The notes: generated by a model not told the origin, from the sequence alone. Numbered from the whole stretch's first letter, positions 18,015 to 58,148 are shown. The stretch: DNA of 58,148 nt, filler included, from Dirinaria sp. TL-2023a (GCA_051941275.1; 3 parts of 3 records of this genome joined end to end with filler, not necessarily neighbours in it); one strand, 5' to 3'. A program made the numbers and translations.

Positions 18015-19319
18015 TGCAACCTCTCGAACAACCTACCATGGCTATATCATGAAGCATATCAGCATTCCGCCGGCATTGCCGGCCAGGCGCTCCTGGCTGC
18101 AATGGACTTTTCAGCATGTATAGCAAATTCTTTTATTTGTCGATTAGATGATACCTTTCTGTTCCCGCTTGCACAGCTCGCTTTTCTTTTTCTTTTTCGT
18201 TTCTTTTAAACTGGAGGCTAGCGAGATGTCCCACAACGACTTTCCACACAATGACGCCTAGCTAGTTTCGCACAGATAAGCTAGCTTGGGCTATAATCTA
18301 TTCAACGATACTATAAAATCCATGGGGCGAATCGAGTCCCATCCAATCGAGTAAGTGTGATTCAACTCCTTTTTTTTTTGTCTTTTTTGCCTATACAAAA
18401 AACATGCCTGCTGATTGAATACCTTCAGGTGGCTCGACATGTTTCAGCTCTGCAATCGCATTTCAAAAGATCACACATACAGTATCTATCTACAGACATA
18501 CATACAATACTACAGCCAAAAGCAAGGTACCCACCCTTATGCCAAAAAAACCCGCAAGCAAGAAGACAAATAAAGCAAACCTGAAACGGGGGTAAAAATC
18601 AGAGCGAATCTGTTTGTGGAGCAGCCAGCCCCAATGTCACTTTTCCCCTTTCCTCTCCACCTTCCCCCTTTCAAAGCATAAATCCCCATGCCTACCTAGA
18701 GAGGTACCTACCTCACCTCACCTCACCTTTACCTGCTCGGTTCTGGAGGGGGGGGAGAGGGGTATGATTGATGGGGCAGCAGCAGCAAAACCGCTTCTAG
18801 CTAGCTACATGTAGGTAAGGTACGAGTACCACATTGAATATATGTAGGTGTGTAGGTAGTGCAAGTGGTGTGGTTGCGTAGGGTAGATGTAGATAGATAG
18901 ATCAAGAACGGAATTTGAGAGCCGGGCTATTGTTTTTTTTTTTTTTTCTTTCTTTTTTTTTTTTTTTGAAATATAAAAGATCAGGACTTGACCTTCTTCA
19001 GCATTGATACCTGTCTACCTTGTATTAACATTGAATTTCCTAACCCATGTCCCTCTTTCCTTTCCTTTGCTATGCAAGGTAAGGTAAGGTACTTCTAGGT
19101 AGGCATCACATACCTAAAGTATCTTATCTTATGTCGAGATCGCGTCGCTTTTCCTACCTACCTACCTACCTACCTATCTACATTTCTACTTGATACAAAA
19201 AATGCTTAATGTAATGTAGGCTATGCGTACCCCATACCCCTTAATCCTTATGGGCTTCTTTCATCCCTCCTCTCCAAACGGATAATTAAACTTCAACAGC
19301 CCATTCAACCCTCCCACCC

Positions 19320-19419
19320 NNNNNNNNNNNNNNNNNNNNNNNNNNNNNNNNNNNNNNNNNNNNTTAATTAATTAANNNNNNNNNNNNNNNNNNNNNNNNN
19401 NNNNNNNNNNNNNNNNNNN
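19320..19419. other. Artificial assembly spacer (N44-TTAATTAATTAA-N44)
   Basis: Exactly 100 nt, with a six-frame-stop linker in the middle; identical design at 38739-38838. Confidence 0.97.
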
Positions 19420-38738: not shown

Positions 38739-38838
38739 NNNNNNNNNNNNNNNNNNNNNNNNNNNNNNNNNNNNNNNNNNNNTTAATTAATTAANNNNNN
38801 NNNNNNNNNNNNNNNNNNNNNNNNNNNNNNNNNNNNNN
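38739..38838. other. Artificial assembly spacer (N44-TTAATTAATTAA-N44)
   Basis: Same 100-nt design as 19320-19419. Confidence 0.97.
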
Positions 38839-45842: not shown

Positions 45843-48800
45843 GACTGTTGATTCAGTGCAGACGAAAAGAGTGCACAGTGCGAAGGATCTTTACCTGCTT
45901 GGAAAAATTGTATCTCTTCAGACTGGGACTGGAGCCGTCCTGCGGAGCTGGGGGGTAGACGCCCGTACACTGCAGCAATGCAACACGCCAAGGTCATGCA
46001 TGAGAAGGCTTCAGTCTCATCTGAGGCTTCGAAGAGGGTTTTCCGTCTCTTTTTTTTGGGCTGTGCCTAGTATGTCACTAGGTAGTCGCAGAGCCCGACG
46101 GAGATGTTCATAGTGCAATATGAGAGTGTGAGATCGACTCGGGTCCATCGGCAGCTTCATCATGCAGGCTATTTCCGATGTTGTGATTGGTGTAGCTATT
46201 TGACCGGGCGCCGTCTGCACCGCTTCGTCACACATCATTTCTGTATCGAGACCCCCTCGACCGCGAAGAACAAAACAAAAGGTCGCTAAGGCGAACGCTC
46301 GATACGTACTCTCGGCATCACCGCGCCTTTAGCTTCGGTATTGGGCCCAGCTGGTTGGAGACTTAATCGATCGCTCTGTGAGAAAAGCCTTCTTGCTGCC
46401 AGAAGTCGTGGCCCGTAAACATCTACGACCCTTCTAGCTGCAGTCATCTTATCATTGAAGTGTTGACTTCGGCTGCCAAGGCTCTGATACGGGGAGCTAG
46501 ATGGCATGCAGGAGACGCCATAGGTATGAGATAAAATAGGCTAATGCCAGGTTGACAGGTGTGTATGTGGTGGGATATTCAGCGATGGGTGAATCTCGCT
46601 TACGTGCATGATCTGGCGTTTTGTGGCTGGTCTCGGCAGCTGCAATTCAAGAAAGAAATAGGTCGTCGAATTCTAGGTGGGGAATAGAATACGGGATCAC
46701 CGACATCTTCGACTAGAATAGATAGATAGTTGATAGTAAGTCTTACGTGTAAAGGCAACATGAACCGAAGGAGGTAGTTCAGTTAAAGTGAAGAAAAGTT
46801 CCCGGCCGTAGCATCGGCTGCATTCGGCACTCCAGGGCCTCCGTGACGGAGCAACGGAAGCAGATCCCGTGCGCCGGACATTAAATTCCCCGCGCTCGGC
46901 GAAATCTCAATTGGCCTGTTGCGGGCAACCCCCACTGTAACGCATCAGCTTCGTCAGCCTCGATATCTACATTAATCTACAACTTCAGCCTCTCTCTCAC
47001 TTGGTGAAGCTCGATAACATACATGTAGCCATTCAGCTTTGTGTTTCTGCATTATTACCGGTGACGGGAAACATCGAGGGTTGCATTTTGATGGTGTCAG
47101 ATTACCCGCCTTGGGCCGCGATCCACTATTTTCTGCCTAAAGGCCCGATTCGTGATCCAATGACAGCAAAGCATCGTCTAGATGTTCGGCTGTCGATCAG
47201 CAGCCACAAGCTGGCAAGGCCTCGTGTACAAATTCTCCGCTCGAACATTCAGGATCATATGCATCTATCAAGTAACGAAGTGATGATCATCGGACGAATC
47301 ACAAGTTCCGTACTGGTGTCGAGTATACGTGGATGTCATTGCCCTTGTTGCGCCGCAGAAGATTTTGTCGAGAGCTTCGAGGGTCCAAACATCCTGTTGC
47401 CAGTCGAGATAGAAAGGCCAAAAGGCACGCAGTCGCCTGAGCATGCAACCCATCTTTGGCGGCTGTCGAAAAGTCATTGAGGAGTTGGTACGCTGGCGTA
47501 TTCTTTTGTAGAGGAGCGTCTTAGCTGTATCCAGTCTCAGTACCGTATTACCCTGCTCAACGCTCGTAAAAGTGCTGCAGCTGTTTCATCATCACATCCT
47601 TGATTGTTTAGATCGGTTCAACGTCCAGAGCTGTCTTTGCAACTACTGTACGCGTGGAAAATTACCTTCTGAATTTCCAATCATGTCGTTGGCTGTAAAG
47701 CCTTGAGCCGACGTCTGACTTCTTCCAAAATTGAATTCTGTGCCAATGAAAGCTCCTTGATTGATTAACTTTGTCTGTCGTCCTTGCTAGCAATCGCGTA
47801 ATGACAAGTAACATACTCATGTTCATATGTGCGCCTTACGCATTTCCAAGCAGATCATGCAAGCTTGCAGATCAGAGTATGAAGACGTCAAATCGCTAGA
47901 TCTGCTTCGGGAAGGCGGCTTGGTGTGTCCTGTGAGGAGTAATATGCGCTGGTGTAACTATCAGTCTTCCCCTTACCCGAGGCTCGAACGTTCTATAGAA
48001 TGAATACTCAACATGGTGTGGCGGGTTGCGCGGCTTCTCCGCTAGTCATAGCAATGCAATGTCGTCTATGCTTGGCCATCACCTCAGTCTCGGCCGATGT
48101 CACTCTGTTTTCACTTTGAGCTATGGTGTACACCAGTGAGGACACAGAAACTCCTTCTTCACGGAAATATTTGCGACTGTAGCGTCTAGAGCCCTACATT
48201 ACCTAACAACGCTTAATATTTCGAGCAAGCATAGGTGCGGTGCGAATACGTATAGTGAATGTTCTGAGCCGGGGAAAATTGGCCATGATGGTGTGATCCA
48301 AAACCCTGGCTCTAAAGCCGATTCTAGCAGCATTTTCGAGAAGTGCCCAGCTTCTAAATCTTATTCAATCTAGACGTTGAGTGTCATCAGGTTGTTGCTC
48401 TATCTCAAGAACCATGTGGTACGAACATGCAGAATGAACTATGAATGCTGTTGTCAGGGATCTTCGTTGCACGCAATTTGTTTATGCATTAGCTTGGCCT
48501 ATTTTGATTAGTAATCAAGAAAGTGATTGGGAATCTCGAGAAAGCCACGAAAAAAGGCATTTTTTGCAAAGATTTATATGTACACTGCGCTTGATTGGTA
48601 CCATTTGGTCGATAATGTAATGTTGGCGTAGGCCATGCAGATAATCCCCATTCTCTTAGCCTTCTATCTCGTCTCCGCCACCAAGACAGCGAGAAAATCA
48701 AGCATAAAACGAGACTTTATAGCTTGAGCAAAAACTCAAAGCAAATATCATCATGCTGTTTCAACGATTATCGATTCATGACCTCAAGCCCAAAATAATA

Positions 48801-49886
48801 TAAAAAATCTAGGCCTTAAGATGAATTGATTGCTCTTATCTGACTCCCATTTTCCATTATCATTCATGCATTTATTTTGTCCCTCTATTTTCACGCTGTA
48901 TTCTTGATCTAGCGGGAGAAGTCTTGAGTCGCGCTCGAAACATTGTAAGGGTACTCGTGCGTCAAGGTCGAGGTCGTGGAACAATGTGATATATAAATTT
49001 CACTCTCACCTAAAGTAGGACGAAGGAAGTCATCTCGAAGACGTGTTGGTTTGATCTTGCTGTTGTTATGAAGAACAGCTAGGAAAAGTTCGTGGCACAT
49101 CGGAACAAATCTTGCCAGTGCCGGTCCTTGAGATAAAAGTAAGTCTAGCGATAGTTAGTGGCAAAGCAATCGAGTTATTTCCAGTCCCCGTGAGATATTT
49201 CCGCTATCCTCCATGATTTAGATGTGTACATGAGTATCATATTTGAAGTGGAGAACGAGCAAAAGAAGGAGAGAATAGATCCCACTTGGTCACCTTGTCA
49301 AAGCGATGACACTTTTAGAATCATGAGTATTCTACTTCAACCTTCCGAAAACTGAATGTCGCTGTGAATGCATCCTAGTCTCAATCTGATAGAACATGAA
49401 AGTCTCTATAATGACTCGATATACCATTTGAAACGAATAAAAAGAGTGAAAGAAAAAGAACAAAGCTCATCTTGTCCTTGGATTCACATCTCACCCATCT
49501 CCCCTGGTCAATCTGATGTTTAGCAATTGATACTTGAGCGAACGATTCAAGAGCCTTCAAGCGTGCAGCGAAACTGTATTAGCGAAGTCTGACTGACGTT
49601 TTCATATCAGGCCCACAGCACCACAGTCACGAGTATCGCAATATTGACGCTGCAGTACAGCTGTCAAGACGGTCTATGAGCAATTTGTAATTGACAATTT
49701 TGAAGGTGAACATTTTCGAGCTTTGATTGCTTTGAAGATCCGAACATAGACAGAGAACGAAATTTATGATCATGTCTCGATAGTTGTTGAAAAGGTTGTT
49801 CAGAGCAGCAAATGAATCGGTGGAAATTATGACGATGGAGAGTCTCGTAGCTATCTTGACTGATATGTCGTTCTGAAAGAGTATGC

Positions 49887-52822
49887 TTAGACTAATCCTG
49901 CGTCTTCACAGTATCCACTAGCTATGCATTTCCGATATTCCGTCGTGTCAGCACCGTTCTCGATAAAAACTCTGACAATATCCTCCCAACCCTCGTATTT
50001 GTAAATCGCTGTATGAGCTAACGGAGTCATGCCACTAAATTCAGCATCGATATCGGCCCCATTTTCTATCAAAAGTTTAACGACGGATGCATTTCTGGCA
50101 AAATGGAGCGTGGTTATTCCGTGATTCTTCACTGTCGCTCCGCTGTCAAGTAATAGCCGGGCACAATCCTCTCCATTGCGACGGGCTAGTACCGCGTACT
50201 CTAGAGCTCTAGAATTGCTCGTATTCTCTATATCCGTACGCGCATTCTTGTTGAGTAATAGCTGCAAAGTGCTCGAATGTCCTTCCCCGGCAGCAAGCAT
50301 CAGTGGTGTACTCCCTTCGCTATTTTGTCGGTTGATTTTGGCTCCTGCTCTAAGCGCAGAATCCACCAGCTCGTCTTGCCCTGCGTATGCAGCATAGTGA
50401 AGCGCAGAATTCCCATCGTCATCGAGGGTATCATTTGGAACGCCGGTGTCTAAAAGCAATCGGAATATAGTATTAAGACCCAGAACAGCAGTGAAGTGCA
50501 GAGGCTCAGAATTCACTGTAAAATCCGTATCGCGCGGGAGAATGAGCGCTGCACGCCTGTGATTTAGCCACTGTATTATCAATGGCGCTGCTTTCGGATC
50601 CTGCTCAAGGTCCCCACGGGCGTAGAAATACCAATTTCGACAGGCGTAGTCCTGGAACGATAATTCATTACGCCCTATACACCCGCTATACTGACAATTT
50701 GTTCTCCTATCCGAGTGCTGTACAGAAGGATTAAAACAAGCATAATCCTTGAGGAGAGGTTCTCGTGAGTCTTTGCAAATTTCACACTGTTCTAAGCTTA
50801 AGGCATCATATTGGAGATAAGTCAAACAAGCGATGAGAATATCTAATCTGGCACTAGGAAACATCTCCTGGCGAACGCTCATAATGTATTCCTGGGTCGT
50901 GCAGTGCACTAGTCGGATCACACGGCTGTCGTCCTCGACAGTTACCAGACCCCCACATACGGTGACGAGGACGCTCTCTTCGACTATGGCATCCCAGTCC
51001 ATTTCCTTAGTATCGGGCTCAACTGCGAGCGCATGCTGAAGTTCCGCAACTTCCATTGGCTGTCGAGAGTAGGAAAGCCATGAAAGGATTCGCTTAGCCA
51101 GTTGAATATCATCGGGGTCTTGATCAAAAATTCGCTGGAAGGTTTCTTTGTAGATATCGTTCAAGCTTATAGGTAGAGTTTCCAAAGCTTTACGGAGGTC
51201 CTTCCTATTTTGTTTCTTCGCTAGAGAATTCAAGTGCAACTCGACGCTCAGGAACCTTGAAGAGGACTTGGTGAGTATACATTTTACTGGATAGCTGCAG
51301 TACACAAAGAGTGGCACTCACATCCCTTTCGCGTTGTTCGCCAAGGTTTCAATAATAGACTGCTGCAGTGTCGTGTCCAGCTTGACTCGGAACCTCGCTG
51401 AAGCTGGTCCTATCAACTGAGACTCTAGGTACTGCCGGATGTCTTCGTCGGAAGCTCGAATCTCAACATGAACAGCATTTGGTAAGTTTCTCTCAATGCT
51501 CGCGTTATGCCTTGACGTTATCATCAACCTCGGCGATTGCTCTTTCAATAAGTTTTTAAAAAGAGCGATGAGAGGCGATCGATCGCCACTATCTGCGTGG
51601 AACTCATCGAGGGCGTCGACCACAAGAAAAACTCTTGAAAGTTTTTGGACCTCACCGCAGAGTACTTTGCAAAGCTTATCAAGTGCTGGCTGAGTGCGTC
51701 CCCCTTGGTGCTCTTCGTATACAATCATAACGTCTTTTGAAATATTTCCGCCCCTCAGCAGTATCTGCTGCAATAGAGCACCAACAATATTGGCCGCTGA
51801 TTGACTTTGCTGATCTTTGTAATCGTTGTAGACAAAGAGAATGGCGGTCTCCTCTTGACGAGCGAATTGTCGCCGCAGATAATCAACCACGATTGCTCTA
51901 GAGGTCTAAGTGTCAGTAACTAAGAATACCTCGCCTTGCAATAACTATCAACGAGACTTTGTATTTACGTCAGAGTAGTTTTACCTGCACCAGCTATTGC
52001 AATAATTTGGTGAGCGCTATTCCAAGAGAGGAAAGGGGGGACCGTACGAATTCCTGGACACCACAGCAATCTTTTATCGCCTGTAAGCCAACTCTCGAAC
52101 TCGTCTGATTCGAGAAGCCATCTCCCGGTTCCCTCGTGACGTCGGCTCAAGACATCAATCTGTTTCGATTCCGGGTTGAGAGGTGATAGCCACCTAAGGA
52201 CTTCTTGGTGCCTTTGGTCATTGCTTAATCTCGCAATTCCAGTAGATAAGCCTTTGACATCCTCACTCAGCTCGGTGACATTATGCTTTGTTGTCTGAGA
52301 AAGCACACGGAGCTCGGCGATATCTTGTTTAATTGCTTGGGAAAGTGCACTTGTCGCAAGAAATATAAGCATGGACTTTTTCGATTATCCGCCGAGCACT
52401 TACAAATTGTCCTCCTGGAGTGCAATACTGATCAACGTCTTCAGCCGCTCAATCATCATCAAGGCATCGTGGATCTTTTTCTTGTCGAAAGGCCAGACAA
52501 GCTTCTTGCCTACATCTTTCAGCGCTGCTTCCGGTTTGACCAGTCTTGCTAAGCCATCCAAGCTCGTCTTATATCGTTGTAAAGTGCCTCCAGACTGGTT
52601 TAGGGTGCGGACCCGATCGAACCAAGGGCTCGTCGGATCCGCAGTCTCGACCTTATCTCTCAGACTGATCAGTAAGCCTAGTAGGCTGAGGGTCTCCTGT
52701 GCCAGTTGCGTCCGCTCTTTCGGTGCATTCTTGACATCGTTAAGATATCCAATAGTCTTGGTGACGGTGCTCATCAACTGTACCAAGCTAGCTGTTAGGC
52801 CAATCGCGGAAATCGGGTCCAT
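49887..52822 (-). CDS. Fungal NLR-like protein: HeLo-like N-terminus, NACHT and ankyrin repeats, 896 aa; exons 52822-52404, 52349-52048, 51993-51969, 51897-51322, 51255-49887
   Basis: N-terminus MDPISAIGLTASLVQL...LVWPF; RHEGTGRWLL; Walker A GIP|GAGKT on a 25-nt microexon; Walker B FLVVDALDE; GMFL; ELQHALAV; ankyrin units GNSALHYAA, GSTPLMLAA, GMTPLAHTA. Four GT-AG introns in phase. Confidence 0.9.
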
Positions 52823-54730: not shown

Positions 54731-56591
54731 TAGGTACGTGCTTGGCGTGGCTCCAACCAGTACTTGGTGAGACAGGCATGCATGCTGTATTTGCAGATTA
54801 GTAGGGCATCTTATAAAGTACTCTGTAAACTCATTATGCATCACCCAAATGGCCGCGTTCGAGAGCATTCTTCTTCTCTATTTGTATATTCTACATGTAA
54901 GATCACTACCTGACTCAATATCTCCTGATCTTCAAGCGCTGAGCCTGTCTGAGACAACGGCAGTCATGAGGCAGTGGCATAACACCACGCTAGGACAGTG
55001 ATGGTAGCATTAAACGGTTATCGATCTAGAATTATCTAAATGTGATGTCAGAGAATAAACTTGTCGTGCTGACTACTTTAGCTGTGTAGGGTCGGGACTA
55101 TTTCGAAAACCTCATTGGAACAAATTGCCAATCAGAATTTTAGATTATTTCCGTTATTACCAAACCCCATGCTTTGCCAGCCTATGGCACTTCTGCAAGA
55201 CTGATCCTTGCGGCTCAGGCAACGGGAACCTGTTCGAGACCAGAAGTACGAGTATTCAATAGAGCTTAACGTCGCCATGAACGCTCAGAGCGTACTCGTT
55301 AGAGATAGTCAAGCTCATAGTCTCATACTACTCCTAACACAGGAGCCGAGAGGTAGGGTTATAACTCTGAACTGCATGATACGTGTAGCTTCTCGTGCCC
55401 GTTGAATTCTCCCAAGGACGTTAGTTTCTCCGCTGACCTTCATTATTAACTCGATATTCTATTTTTCTCCCGTAGTCTGTCAGAGGTAGCCAATCATGGT
55501 GTCTACTAAGGGGATATACTTGAAGAGAGTTCAATCTAGATGTAGACAAAACCCTACAAGGGAGCCTTGTGGAGCGTCTTTGCAAATGGTGGAAGTACAA
55601 TACTGGAAAACTGGGCATTGGGTAAGTGCAATCATTGTTTCCCTGAGAGTAGAGCTCTAATATCAAAAATTACAGGGAATAAAACTGTTCTAGGGGTAGC
55701 ATCACCCTCGTTTCTTGGACACTATGTCTGACATGCTTTGGTACAAAGTACTTCGCCCTTTTTGCGTTTTTGAAAGCGAGGGAAGCTCGTATGTGTCTGC
55801 TTAGCTCTTGCAAGAGAATGGATTGAGGTCGAAATTGAGGGATGGCAAACTTGTCAAATAAGTTACTTATACGTGGCGATGAGCCTTGCAGCATGACTGG
55901 CCCGGTCATACCCTGATGTGGCCCTAAAGCCGGTGATTCCAGTAAAAATCTGGCGCGAAGATAACATTGTCACGATGTATTCACACAGCGCCCGTGTTGA
56001 GGGATGTTAGCGACTGCAAAGTCCCCATTTGAGTTTAATTCTTTTAGTAATATCATGTCATATCTCAACAAGCTCAATGAAAAAAGAGACACTGATAATG
56101 TAATTTGAGCAATACATCTTCTGACCCTGTGAAAGGATACAGCAACTGTAAGTGCTTTTTCGCAAACTTCGCTCACCGGCACCCCGTTACTTGGATGTCA
56201 TTGCATAGTAGCATACAGTCTGGCTTTTAGCCACGTGTGCATATCGCTCTGGAGCTCTGTAGCCGTTTAAGAGGCCAGCGCCACCATGTTTTCCAAGACG
56301 TCTTTTCGTATACTTTGGTAGGCCACGCGATTATCCCAAGGGCGCTGGAGCTATTAGTCGTATTCACTTGAGAAAAGAGATGAAAAGGCTTTCTATCCTA
56401 TGGCTAGGGTTTTATCAACCCGCATAGGAAATGATCAAACTCTAAAGAGTCGAATACCGAAAGCTGGCATAAAAGTTGCTATTTCGAACCTCGTCGAGCA
56501 TTGAGATGTCCCTAATGAGGTGCTCCACCATTTACATGATAGCTTTATTACAACCTAGGAGGGCCAGAATCTAGGCAAATCAAGGTAGATA

Positions 56592-58148
56592 CACAGGGTT
56601 TGCATTTTTTCCCAGCAGGTGTATGGACTAAGGCTGTTGTGTTTGCGCTTTAATTAACTTCCAGTTATGATTTTCTTTCCTATACTCTCGAGATTTTTTT
56701 AGTATATCCGCACCCGAAGTTAACCCGCAATTAGCGCGTTTTTTCATGCTCCCAAAACGCGTCTTCTAATCCTTTCTCTTCTATACAAAATGCCTTCTAA
56801 CCGCGGCGATATGGATATTTCTGCCGCTAAAAAGGGAGCAATTATTCTTCAAAGCGATCATTATCATGAGTCAAATCGACACATTGCCAGAGTACAGAAC
56901 GTGAATGAAAAGACCATTAGAAACGTCAAAAAGCGCGTATACGAGGAAGCTGAGAAAGAGAACATACTCTCTATTGAAGCCGCCAGTCACAAACGTTCTC
57001 GCGGTCGAAAACCTCTCAAATTGAACGTACGAGATCTTCGACGTCTGGTCAGACATGCGACGAAAAATAAAGCCAATCGACGCAAGACTTGAAGTGTTAT
57101 TGCTCAAGAATGTGGCATACAGGCCTCCCTCACAGCTATCCGTCATGCCTTCGAAGTTCAAGGCTATGAACGTTATTCATCTCGTTATAAATCGTCTCTC
57201 ACGAATGCACAGAAGCGAAAGCGCTTTGAATTCTGTATTGAGATGCTTGAAAAGAATGCGAACTTTTGAAAGAAGATCGTTTGGACCGATGAGACTTCTG
57301 TGAAGATGGAACAACGACGGGGACAGATATGAGTCACTAGAAAGAAAAACGAGGCATATCATAAGGACTGCTTGAATTCTACGTTCAAGAAGTACTCAGA
57401 TATAATGTTTTGAGGTGCTTTTTCCTCGAAAAAAAGAGGGCCAAGTCATATGTTTGTCACAGAGACTGCGGCAGAGAAGAAGACCGCTCATAAAGACTTA
57501 CAACATCTCAACGCGGACTATCATGCTGAAGCCCAATTATTGAAGAACATTTTTGATGCGGAAGAAGCCAACAAGCCCCTTTCAAAGCGAAGAAAGAGGC
57601 CTTCTAAGCCAGAAGCTCTTCCTAAAGAGAGGAGAAAGAATTTAAAAGAAGAGATTGATTGATACAGATATCTGACAGAGATGCTGCGATCTAAACTTCT
57701 TCCATTTTGTCGCGATATTATACGAGAGTATGACGAATGTTATCTGCTGAAAGATGAAGCCGCAGCACACATTGCCTGAGAAAACAGAGAAGAATATGAT
57801 ATTGAAGATTTACATCGCATCAATTGGTCTGGCAATTCGTCTGATTTAAACATGATTGAGCAGGCCTGGTTCTATATGAAGCGGAAGGTAACTGAAAAAC
57901 CCTTTATAGTTTCTACTATCCTCAGTACTAGACAGGCATGGGAGAATATATGGTCACAACTAGATATAGAGATAATAGGGAAGTGGGTTGGACGTATTAC
58001 TGACTGCCTAGAACGGTGTCGCAATGCGAAAGGCGACAACAATTTTCATAGCTAGATATTGATAATCAGGCTTCAAATTATATATATATGAATTTGGAAA
58101 GCAATTGGGCAATGCGTTGTTGAGTTATAATAATTTGAATGTAGATGG
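56592..58148 (+). mobile_element. Tc1/mariner DNA transposon (DD34E), inactivated; right end lies outside the window
   Basis: Contains a full-length transposase frame. Putative left end TA|CACAGGGTTTGCATTTTTTCCCAGC at 56590-56592 is tentative because the partner TIR is not visible. Confidence 0.85.
56790..58055 (+). pseudogene. Tc1-family transposase pseudogene, 421 codons, six in-frame TGA stops, no frameshift
   Basis: HTH-like N-terminus with RGRKP; catalytic D in WTDET (57288), D in KDEAAAH (57753) and E in SSDLNMIE (57858), with 34 residues between the second D and E. TGA at 57090, 57267, 57330, 57411, 57660 and 57777. Confidence 0.93.

What the first reader, a model, noticed from the sequence alone, without database searches (positions are those of the whole stretch)
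56790..58055. Transposase inactivated by CpC-directed hypermutation rather than canonical CpA RIP
Seen: all six internal stops are TGA, none TAG or TAA. Several sit at positions typical of Trp in Tc1 transposases (F*KKIVWTDE, I*VTR, MF*GAF, ID*YRY), implying TGG->TGA. Other motifs are altered in the same direction: DGAxxH->DEAAAH, (K)GGIDW->KEEID*, WPxNSPDLN->WSGNSSDLN, and probably KPPLT->KSSLT. These are GG->GA and CC->TC changes, i.e. C->T at the 5' C of CpC on both strands. Established: Neurospora-type RIP targets CpA and would convert TGG to TAG and CAR to TAR; no such stops occur, although many CAA/CAG codons survive. Inference: this genome has a RIP-like repeat-defence system with atypical CpC specificity, possibly from a divergent RID/DIM-2 methyltransferase or a deaminase.
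Basis: partly seen in the sequence, partly recalled or inferred. Interest (0 to 1): 0.75.

Follow-up and report, generated by a model that had tools for sequence, protein, structure and literature searches.

The report
CC-targeted hypermutation killed a transposon
A dead Tc1/mariner jumping gene in a lichen-forming fungus was knocked out by C-to-T changes that hit almost only a C followed by another C, a repeat-defence-like mutation pattern whose target differs from the classical fungal one and which the usual tests do not see.

Summary
Window 56790-58055 (+) is one unbroken frame of a Tc1/mariner transposase with six internal stops, all TGA. All six sit where the four closest full-length relatives have Trp.

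Comparing codons with six relatives at 229 conserved columns, nonsynonymous C>T changes hit 26 of 72 CpC sites. They hit 3 of 56 CpA, 2 of 49 CpG and 2 of 49 CpT sites (Fisher p=2e-9). Reverse T>C changes were 2 of 219. The same method on a host gene in this window (ERG26) gave 0/59, 1/79 and 2/77 CpC hits.

Both strands are hit alike. A 5' G is disfavoured. The hits cluster in 57090-57839. Classical RIP indices are negative. TGA is a normal stop in the host genes here.

Two related Tc1 families on public metagenome contigs, one flanked by a lecanoromycete-like gene, show the signature at DNA level: 22 of 22 polarised C>T changes are at CpC. A soil-derived control family gave the classical CpA pattern.

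Repeat dependence, timing and enzyme were not testable: no genome is held and the window has one copy. This scan reported the same signature before on other DNA of this genome. I found no report in print.

The parts
56790..58055 (+). Tc1/mariner (DD34E-type) transposase pseudogene: a single frame of 421 codons with six internal TGA and a terminal TAG
   Evidence: translation. (Pfam HTH_Tnp_Tc3_2 at 9.4e-07 and DDE_3 at 4.8e-04, both below the curated cut-offs). (intact relatives at 50-58% identity over 100% of the length). (alignment).
57090..57092 (+). In-frame TGA at Trp column W101
   Evidence: W in 7 of 10 relatives, including the four closest
57267..57269 (+). In-frame TGA at invariant Trp column W160
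   Evidence: W in 11 of 11 relatives
57330..57332 (+). In-frame TGA at Trp column W181
   Evidence: W in the 6 close relatives
57411..57413 (+). In-frame TGA at invariant Trp column W208
   Evidence: W in 11 of 11 relatives
57660..57662 (+). In-frame TGA at invariant Trp column W291 (GGIDWYRY motif, here EEID*YRY)
   Evidence: W in 11 of 11 relatives
57777..57779 (+). In-frame TGA at Trp column W330
   Evidence: W in 4 of 5 close relatives
57090..57842 (.). Hypermutated tract of about 750 bp that holds nearly all inferred CpC>TpC changes and all six stops
   Evidence: 24 of 50 nonsynonymous CpC sites hit inside 57090-57839 against 2 of 22 outside (p=0.0014); all 6 TGA lie inside, and 5 of the 6 surviving TGG lie at or after 57825; the share CC+GG/(CC+GG+TC+GA) is 0.22-0.31 across 56751-57800 against 0.39-0.49 in the flanks.
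57066..57245 (+). HTH_Tnp_Tc3_2 DNA-binding domain (residues 93-152)
57288..57860 (+). Catalytic core with the three acidic residues still encoded: D167 (57288-57290), D322 (57753-57755) and E357 (57858-57860), with 34 residues between the last two
   Evidence: conserved columns; codons read directly. The assignment of these residues as the DD34E triad rests on recalled knowledge of Tc1 transposases.

Best explanation
The feature is a dead copy of a Tc1/mariner DNA transposon in the nuclear genome of a lecanoromycete (lichen-forming) fungus, sitting in a gene-rich region.

Shown: it was inactivated by C-to-T transitions aimed at a cytosine whose 3' neighbour is another cytosine (CpC>TpC, read as GpG>GpA on the other strand). 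This turned six Trp codons TGG into TGA and changed Gly>Glu and Pro>Ser at conserved motifs. Both strands are hit equally. A 5' G and a C at position +2 are disfavoured, so the target looks roughly like H-C*-C-D. About half of the available sites were hit in a central tract of about 750 bp, and few outside it.

Inferred: the agent is a RIP-type process. That means a burst of cytosine deamination (or methylation followed by deamination) on duplex DNA, triggered by sequence repetition, most likely in the sexual cycle and most likely by a RID/DIM-2-type cytosine methyltransferase homologue. Its flanking-base preference would be CpC instead of the CpA of Neurospora. The limited tract would then mark the stretch that was homologous to a partner copy.
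For: Context-normalised codon comparison at 229 conserved columns: CpC 26/72, CpA 3/56, CpG 2/49, CpT 2/49, T>C 2/219, transversions 7/1090; Fisher p=2.2e-9.

Host-gene control in the same window (ERG26, three relative sets): CpC 0/59, 1/79 and 2/77, no excess.

Composition: CC/GG observed/expected is 0.69 in the element against 0.94 for the window, and TC/GA is 1.33 against 1.14. The intergenic flank 55001-56500 stays at 0.92-0.98.

Strand symmetry: 8/27 sites with the C on the + strand against 18/45 on the - strand, p=0.45.

Tract: 24/50 inside against 2/22 outside, p=0.0014. The six stops are confined to 57090-57779.

Independent DNA-level support comes from two related Tc1 families of about 1.56 kb with perfect inverted ends and TA flanks on public metagenome contigs.
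- In the near-identical trio L071/L074/L078, polarised by L047, all 22 C>T changes are at CpC (22/140). There are 0/184 at CpA, 0/141 at CpG and 0/191 at CpT, and only 3 other changes. They split 10 and 12 between strands and differ between copies (12, 8 and 2), as bursts would.
- Three further polarised sets gave CpC 17/120, 15/123 and 24/127 against 4/460, 11/468 and 12/484 at the other contexts.
- Several copies of one family lie in the same assembly prefix.

Positive control: a soil-derived family gave the classical pattern (L061: 21 CpA against 1 CpC), so the pipeline can see CpA when it is there.

Taxon: ERG26 in the window has its best named hits in Lecanoromycetes at 63-70% identity. 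The Trp synthase next to L078 has its best named hits in Lecanoromycetes at 74-77%.

Homologues of RID and DIM-2 are reported in a lecanoromycete genome (PMC12542154, passages read).
Against: Repeat dependence is not shown for this element. It is the only copy in the 58 kb window and I could not search the genome.

Ancestral states are inferred from proteins only 50-58% identical, so only nonsynonymous changes at conserved columns (229 of 421 codons) were scored. Synonymous and non-coding sites of this element are untested.

The element's ends were not found, and the right end may lie beyond the window. The tract boundary therefore cannot be related to the element's structure.

Many CpC sites survive: 46 of 72 scored, and 77 CC/GG dinucleotides in all. 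This is a light hit.

Other stretches of the window have similarly low CC/GG ratios (0.68-0.73 at about 47.5-51.5 kb), so composition alone does not mark this element out.

In the less closely related family comparisons, CpT and CpG changes are not negligible (family A singletons: CpT 12/168, CpC 27/145).

Some Tc1 relatives on contigs of the same metagenome series carry TAG-at-Trp and TAA-at-Gln stops instead (L001/L002, L063). Either more than one fungus or more than one process is present there.

No enzyme, timing or methylation data were available.
Confidence: 0.7

Rival explanations
1. Slow decay rather than a burst. The silenced transposon is methylated at cytosines in a CpC context, and 5-methylcytosine deaminates spontaneously over long times. 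No recognition of repeats and no premeiotic event are involved.
For: This gives the same C>T direction, the same strand symmetry and the same confinement to a transposon. I had no data on timing or methylation.
Against: Near-identical copies differ almost only by CpC>TpC changes: 22 such changes against 3 others in about 1.5 kb, unevenly spread as 12, 8 and 2 per copy. The CpC rate is about 70 times that of all other sites. This looks like discrete bursts. In the window element the hits stop abruptly inside the coding sequence, 24/50 against 2/22. Uniform methylation of a silenced element would not predict that.
Confidence: 0.15
2. Editing by a single-strand-specific cytidine deaminase (AID/APOBEC-like) acting on transposon DNA exposed during transcription, replication or transposition.
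For: Such deaminases have strong neighbour-base preferences and cause clustered C>T changes (general knowledge, recalled). The clustering in a 750-bp tract would fit.
Against: The deciding neighbour here is the 3' base, and the 5' base matters only weakly. In the APOBEC family the 5' base decides (recalled). Both strands are hit at equal rates in the window element (8/27 against 18/45) and in the family trio (10 against 12). A cut-and-paste Tc1 element has no obligatory single-stranded or cDNA intermediate.
Confidence: 0.08
3. The gene is not dead. TGA is read as Trp, or read through, in this organism or for this element.
For: All six TGA stand at Trp columns, the frame is otherwise intact, and the three catalytic acidic residues are kept.
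Against: 13 long host ORFs in the same window contain 79 TGG and no internal TGA, and 5 of them end at TGA. The same element carries Gly>Glu and Pro>Ser at conserved motifs in the same mutational direction. Recoding does not explain those changes. Half of the element's own Trp codons are still TGG.
Confidence: 0.01
4. Ordinary neutral decay of an old pseudogene. The TGA-only pattern would then be chance or an effect of which substitutions are easy to see in proteins.
For: Only nonsynonymous changes could be scored. V>I, E>K and D>N are common in normal protein evolution.
Against: After normalising for opportunity, CpC sites are hit 26/72 against 7/154 for other C sites (p=2e-9) and 2/219 for T>C. 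The same pipeline on a host gene shows no CpC excess. There is no frameshift and no indel-type damage in 1,266 bases.
Confidence: 0.01

Closest known systems
Repeat-induced point mutation (RIP) of Neurospora crassa and other Pezizomycotina (RID-dependent and DIM-2/DIM-5-dependent pathways)
   Same: Both make C:G>T:A transitions only, in clusters, on both strands, confined to a transposon and sparing the neighbouring host gene. The specificity is set by the 3' neighbour of the cytosine. The outcome is premature stops and missense changes that kill the transposase. The organism belongs to the Pezizomycotina, where RIP occurs.
   Different: The target is CpC, which I recall as the least-used context in Neurospora (CpA > CpT > CpG > CpC). 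CpA is almost untouched here: 3/56 in the element and 0/184 in the family trio. The classical indices therefore read 'not RIPed': TpA/ApT is 0.68 and (CpA+TpG)/(ApC+GpT) is 1.34, against the thresholds >0.89 and <1.03 quoted in PMC3897900. GC falls only to 42%. Dependence on duplication, premeiotic timing and the enzymes are untested here.
RIP-like variants with other contexts: CpG/CpA in Aspergillus and Penicillium, TpCpG in Pucciniomycotina and Microbotryum (recalled from the literature, not from a call)
   Same: They set a precedent that the preferred flanking base of RIP-like C>T mutation differs between fungal lineages.
   Different: None of these variants prefers CpC. A 2025 kingdom-wide survey concludes that RIP-like defences share a preference for CpA and does not contain the term CpC (PMC12543289, passages read).
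APOBEC3G-type editing of retroelements (recalled)
   Same: Clustered C>T changes involving CC dinucleotides, making TGG>stop changes in mobile elements.
   Different: APOBEC3G deaminates the 3' C of CC on one strand, which gives GG>AG and TGG>TAG. Here the 5' C of CC is changed, which gives GG>GA and TGG>TGA, on both strands equally, in a DNA transposon of a fungus.
Tc1/mariner superfamily, DD34E Tc1-like transposons of fungi (Pfam HTH_Tnp_Tc3_2 + DDE_3)
   Same: The domain order, length of about 420 residues, conserved acidic residues and spacing all fit. Related families end in inverted repeats flanked by TA.
   Different: This copy is broken by six stops. Its own inverted ends were not found. 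Its closest intact relatives are only 50-58% identical and unnamed.

Membership tests
Tc1/mariner transposase (DD34E) | N-terminal helix-turn-helix DNA-binding domain followed by a DDE_3 catalytic domain | tested here: met
   HTH_Tnp_Tc3_2 at E=9.4e-07 (29.5 bits, cut-off 31.5) and DDE_3 at E=4.8e-04 (20.4 bits, cut-off 28.6). Both are below the curated cut-offs in this mutated copy. The intact relatives P0002-P0004 carry both families in precomputed Pfam and align over 100% of the length.
Tc1/mariner transposase (DD34E) | Acidic triad D, D, E with 34 residues between the second D and the E | tested here: met
   D167, D322 and E357 lie in conserved columns and the codons were read. That these are the catalytic residues is recalled, not tested.
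Tc1/mariner transposase (DD34E) | Terminal inverted repeats flanked by a duplicated TA | tested here: inconclusive
   No inverted repeat links the two flanks. The window ends 93 bases after the stop codon. Related families A and B do have perfect inverted ends with TA flanks.
Repeat-induced point mutation (RIP) | Only C:G>T:A transitions, in excess over all other changes | tested here: met
   33 C>T against 2 T>C and 7 transversions among single-step changes at conserved columns. 22 C>T against 3 other changes in the family trio.
Repeat-induced point mutation (RIP) | Preference for CpA (CpA>TpA), hence high TpA/ApT and low (CpA+TpG)/(ApC+GpT) | tested here: not met
   CpA 3/56 against CpC 26/72. 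The indices are 0.68 and 1.34. This is the respect in which it is a variant and not a canonical member.
Repeat-induced point mutation (RIP) | Acts on duplicated sequence only and spares single-copy DNA | tested here: inconclusive
   The host gene ERG26 and the intergenic flanks are spared, and related multi-copy Tc1 families are hit. But only one copy of this element is in the window and no genome is held. Purifying selection also protects host genes.
Repeat-induced point mutation (RIP) | Both strands affected; mutations clustered within the repeated tract | tested here: met
   8/27 against 18/45 by strand. 24/50 inside against 2/22 outside 57090-57839.
Repeat-induced point mutation (RIP) | Occurs between fertilisation and karyogamy; needs RID and/or DIM-2 with DIM-5 | not testable with these tools
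   No genome, reads or crosses were available.

The most novel reading that the evidence does not exclude
Lecanoromycete lichen fungi run a true RIP machinery whose sequence preference has switched from CpA to CpC (roughly H-C*-C-D). Much of their repeat defence would then be invisible to every CpA-based RIP index and survey. The switch would be encoded in the target-recognition part of their RID or DIM-2 homologue. That would provide a natural specificity variant with which to settle how RIP cytosine methyltransferase homologues choose and mutate their substrate.
Probability: 0.45. Interest if true: 0.8.

Novelty: new variant of a known kind. Interest (0 to 1): 0.7.

Why it matters
RIP is the textbook fungal genome defence. 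Its presence across fungi is scored with indices built on the CpA preference. A lineage that mutates CpC instead would be scored as having weak RIP or none. That would distort comparative claims about which fungi defend their genomes, how gene duplication is constrained, and how AT-rich compartments arise. A 2025 kingdom-wide survey concluded that RIP-like defences share the CpA preference (PMC12543289).

A clean CpC signature also leaves CpG and CpA intact and lowers GC only mildly. Such relics therefore look like ordinary genes to annotation pipelines. Database 'proteins' such as P0024 appear to be mutated copies.

Mechanistically, how RID/DIM-2 turn cytosine into thymine and what sets the neighbour preference are open questions. 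A natural variant with the opposite preference makes them testable by swapping domains or whole genes into Neurospora.

Tried and rejected
- Sequencing runs: none was listed for 56600-58148. This is no evidence either way.
- Second copy in the window: blastn and tblastn found only the element itself, plus a weak hit at 18315-18725 (E=0.005) that I ignored.
- Inverted ends: none were found linking the flanks of this element or in its nearest DNA relatives L001, L051 and L003.
- Earlier scan notes by sequence: no look-alike stretch was on record. A word search with seven words found nothing.
- Cytosine methyltransferase genes on the metagenome contigs that carry the related families: the records are not held, so I dropped this.
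- TGA=Trp recoding: rejected.
- Majority-consensus tabulation of the families gave many apparent T>C changes. I attribute these to wrong polarity where most copies are mutated, and I replaced it with outgroup-polarised and singleton counts.
- An error of mine: I counted two C>G changes as hits. One search corrects this, and the numbers are not used.
- Rows dropped: 192 of 421 codons had no 75% consensus among the six relatives or too few residues. 11 differing codons needed more than one step or had ambiguous paths.
- Duplicate loci: L043, L069 and L042 are 100% identical to L040, L068 and L041 and were left out of the family alignments. L052/L053 and L064/L070 are near-duplicates and were kept.
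- Loci examined: only 18 of the 80 loci (families A and B) plus 6 control loci (family C) were tabulated at DNA level.
- Literature: six full-text searches and passages of six papers gave no report of a CpC-preferring RIP. Subscription papers, such as Clutterbuck 2011 (recalled, not seen), and supplements were not examined and could hold one.

Full report
**What is there.** Window 56790-58055 (+) reads in one frame as a 421-codon protein ending in TAG. It is interrupted by six stops, all TGA, at 57090, 57267, 57330, 57411, 57660 and 57777. There is no frameshift. Pfam gives weak HTH_Tnp_Tc3_2 and DDE_3 matches, both below the curated cut-offs. A search of the large protein collection found stop-free relatives of 418-447 residues at 50-58% identity over the full length, carrying both domains. 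The alignment shows a Tc1-like transposase whose three conserved acidic residues (D167, D322, E357, with 34 residues between the last two) are still encoded. Their catalytic role is recalled, not tested. The element is the only copy in the window. Its inverted ends were not found, and the window ends 93 bases after its stop codon.

**Genomic setting.** The rest of the window is an ordinary fungal gene-rich region. It holds an alpha-actinin-like gene, a PAK-type kinase, a P450, ERG26, a Rim15-like kinase and an ankyrin protein. ERG26 has its best named hits in lichen-forming Lecanoromycetes at 63-70% identity, and unnamed hits up to 96%. I take the organism to be a lecanoromycete without a named close relative in that search.

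**Checking the observation.** All six TGA stand at Trp columns. The four closest full-length relatives have W at all six, and three of the columns are W in 11 of 11 relatives. Only the second S of 'KSSLT' falls on a variable column. 13 CAA/CAG codons, 10 CGA codons and 6 TGG codons survive.

**Is it more than chance, and is the context really CpC?**
- I took the six closest relatives and kept the 229 columns where at least 75% of them agree. The element differs at 53 of these. For each difference I asked whether one base change explains it.
- I then normalised by opportunity, meaning every C or G in those codons whose transition would change the residue.
- The hits were CpC 26/72, CpA 3/56, CpG 2/49, CpT 2/49, T>C 2/219 and transversions 7/1090. 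Fisher p for CpC against other C contexts is 2.2e-9.
- Using only the three stop-free full-length relatives, and requiring them to be unanimous, gave 22/60 against 3/139.
- The same pipeline on ERG26 from this window, against three sets of relatives at 63-80% identity, gave CpC 0/59, 1/79 and 2/77. So the method does not create a CpC excess.
- Composition agrees. CC/GG observed/expected is 0.69 in the element against 0.94 in the window, and TC/GA is 1.33 against 1.14. The classical RIP indices are negative, at 0.68 and 1.34.
- Composition alone would not single the element out. Stretches near 47.5-51.5 kb are as low in CC/GG.

**Finer anatomy.**
- The two strands are hit at similar rates, 8/27 and 18/45.
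- A 5' G is disfavoured: 4/27 against 22/45, p=0.005.
- A C at +2 is rarely hit: 1/9.
- The hits are concentrated in 57090-57839: 24/50 against 2/22 outside, p=0.0014.
- All six stops lie in that tract, and five of the six surviving TGG lie at or beyond 57825.
- So about half of the available sites in a tract of about 750 bp were changed, and the 3' end of the gene was largely spared.

**Is TGA a sense codon here?** No. 13 long host ORFs in the window hold 79 TGG and no internal TGA, and five of them end at TGA. Recoding would also not explain the Gly>Glu and Pro>Ser changes.

**Evidence from elsewhere.**
- No genome is held and no sequencing run was listed, so I scanned metagenome contigs for relatives.
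- In-frame stops by type: of the 80 loci kept, 42 have in-frame stops in the matched region. In one series of assemblies many carry TGA at Trp only (for example L060 with 5, L068 with 4 and L034 with 3). Soil-derived loci carry TAG at Trp and TAA/TAG at Gln, the classical picture.
- The same series also holds loci with classical-type stops (L001/L002, L063). More than one fungus or more than one process is present there.
- Families A and B: two families of about 1.56 kb, with perfect inverted ends and TA flanks, have copies 85-99% identical.
- Polarised counts: with an outgroup, the near-identical trio L071/L074/L078 shows 22 C>T changes, all at CpC (22/140). There are 0/184 at CpA, 0/141 at CpG and 0/191 at CpT, and 3 other changes. 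The 22 split 10 and 12 between strands and 12, 8 and 2 between copies.
- Three further polarised sets gave CpC 17/120, 15/123 and 24/127, against 4/460, 11/468 and 12/484 for the other contexts together.
- In the broader singleton counts CpT comes second: family A 12/168 against CpC 27/145 and CpA 3/200.
- Pooled, the families show the same neighbour trends as the window element. At -1, G is lowest at 11/112. At +2, C is lowest at 4/79 and A is highest at 30/113.
- Positive control: a soil-derived family gave the CpA pattern in L061 (21 CpA, 1 CpC), so the pipeline detects classical RIP where it exists.
- Taxon of these contigs: the gene beside L078 is a fused tryptophan synthase whose best named hits are Lecanoromycetes at 74-77%, ahead of Dothideomycetes at about 69-71%.
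- None of the loci is near-identical to the window. They are independent DNA, possibly from other species.

**How it most likely works.**
- Shown: a transition-only, CpC-directed, strand-symmetric, clustered mutation of a transposon that spares the neighbouring host gene.
- Inferred: a RIP-type process, meaning homology-triggered deamination on duplex DNA by a RID/DIM-2-type enzyme with an altered 3'-neighbour preference. The mutated tract would mark the stretch of homology with a partner copy.
- The burst-like, copy-specific pattern in near-identical family members favours this over slow decay of methylated cytosines.
- Strand symmetry and the dominance of the 3' neighbour argue against an APOBEC-like single-strand deaminase.
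- Repeat dependence, timing and the enzyme remain untested.

**Comparison with what is known.** It works like RIP in every tested respect except the defining context preference, which is not met. I therefore file it as a variant, not a canonical member.
- A study of a Cladonia genome scored RIP by GC content (PMC12542154), and one of Xanthoria genomes used the RIPper tool (preprint 10.1101/2025.11.25.690456). In the passages I read, neither examined context.
- An Endocarpon study used the classical indices (PMC3897900).
- An Ascomycota-wide survey does not mention Lecanoromycetes or CpC (PMC7882544).
- The 2025 kingdom-wide survey states that RIP-like defences share a CpA preference and never mentions CpC (PMC12543289).
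- Six full-text searches found no report of CpC-preferring RIP. Subscription literature and supplements were not seen.

**Relation to earlier notes of this scan.** Other agents reported the same CpC signature on other pieces of this genome, in Copia, LINE and gag copies, a Starship, dead genes and CC/GG-free tracts. Those notes are unchecked, and I did not use them as evidence. My tests on different DNA agree with them, including the note that CpT is the second target. New here:
- a DNA-transposon case in a gene-rich region with a light, sharply bounded hit
- an opportunity-normalised test with a host-gene negative control and a CpA positive control
- the neighbour preferences at -1 and +2
- a DNA-level confirmation in independent public contigs

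**Verdict.** The mutational signature is established with high confidence. The RIP-type mechanism is the best reading at about 0.7. It is a new variant of a known kind, and of real interest to those who study fungal genome defence.

Noticed in passing
window 47501-51500: Several 1-kb windows have CC/GG observed/expected of 0.68-0.73 and TC/GA up to 1.39, as low as in the transposon. They overlap and flank an ankyrin/NACHT-like ORF (49887-51317, minus strand). This may be a further target of the same process, or merely composition.
   Followed up: no
window 19320-19419 and 38739-38838: There are two pairs of 44-base runs of N (176 N in all), each pair 12 bases apart. These are masked or unresolved stretches.
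   Followed up: no
protein P0024 (NCBI/JGI source, 422 aa) compared with P0016: A database 'protein' without stops differs from its intact relative by Gly>Glu 9 times (reverse 0) and Pro>Ser 8 times (reverse 0), with no Pro>Leu. It looks like a CpC-mutated transposase copy annotated as a gene.
   Followed up: partly
L001/L002, L051, L063 (metagenome loci): Tc1 relatives on contigs of the same assembly series as families A and B carry TAG at Trp and TAA at Gln, the classical CpA-type stops. Either a second fungus with canonical RIP is in those samples, or both processes occur.
   Followed up: no
L040=L043, L068=L069, L041=L042, L029=L030, L001=L002: Pairs of loci from differently prefixed assemblies are 100% identical, flanks included. 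The same genome seems to have been assembled in several metagenomes.
   Followed up: no
L071, L078, L047, L066, L018, L080: Families A and B are complete Tc1 elements of about 1.56 kb with perfect inverted ends of about 40 bases beginning TACGAGGT and flanked by TA. Some copies have no in-frame stop, so the families may be recently active.
   Followed up: partly
window 18315-18725: A weak tblastn match (E=0.005, 24% identity) of relative P0004's N-terminal part, next to a masked stretch and a region of high CC/GG (1.47). It may be an old relic of another Tc1-like element, or noise.
   Followed up: no
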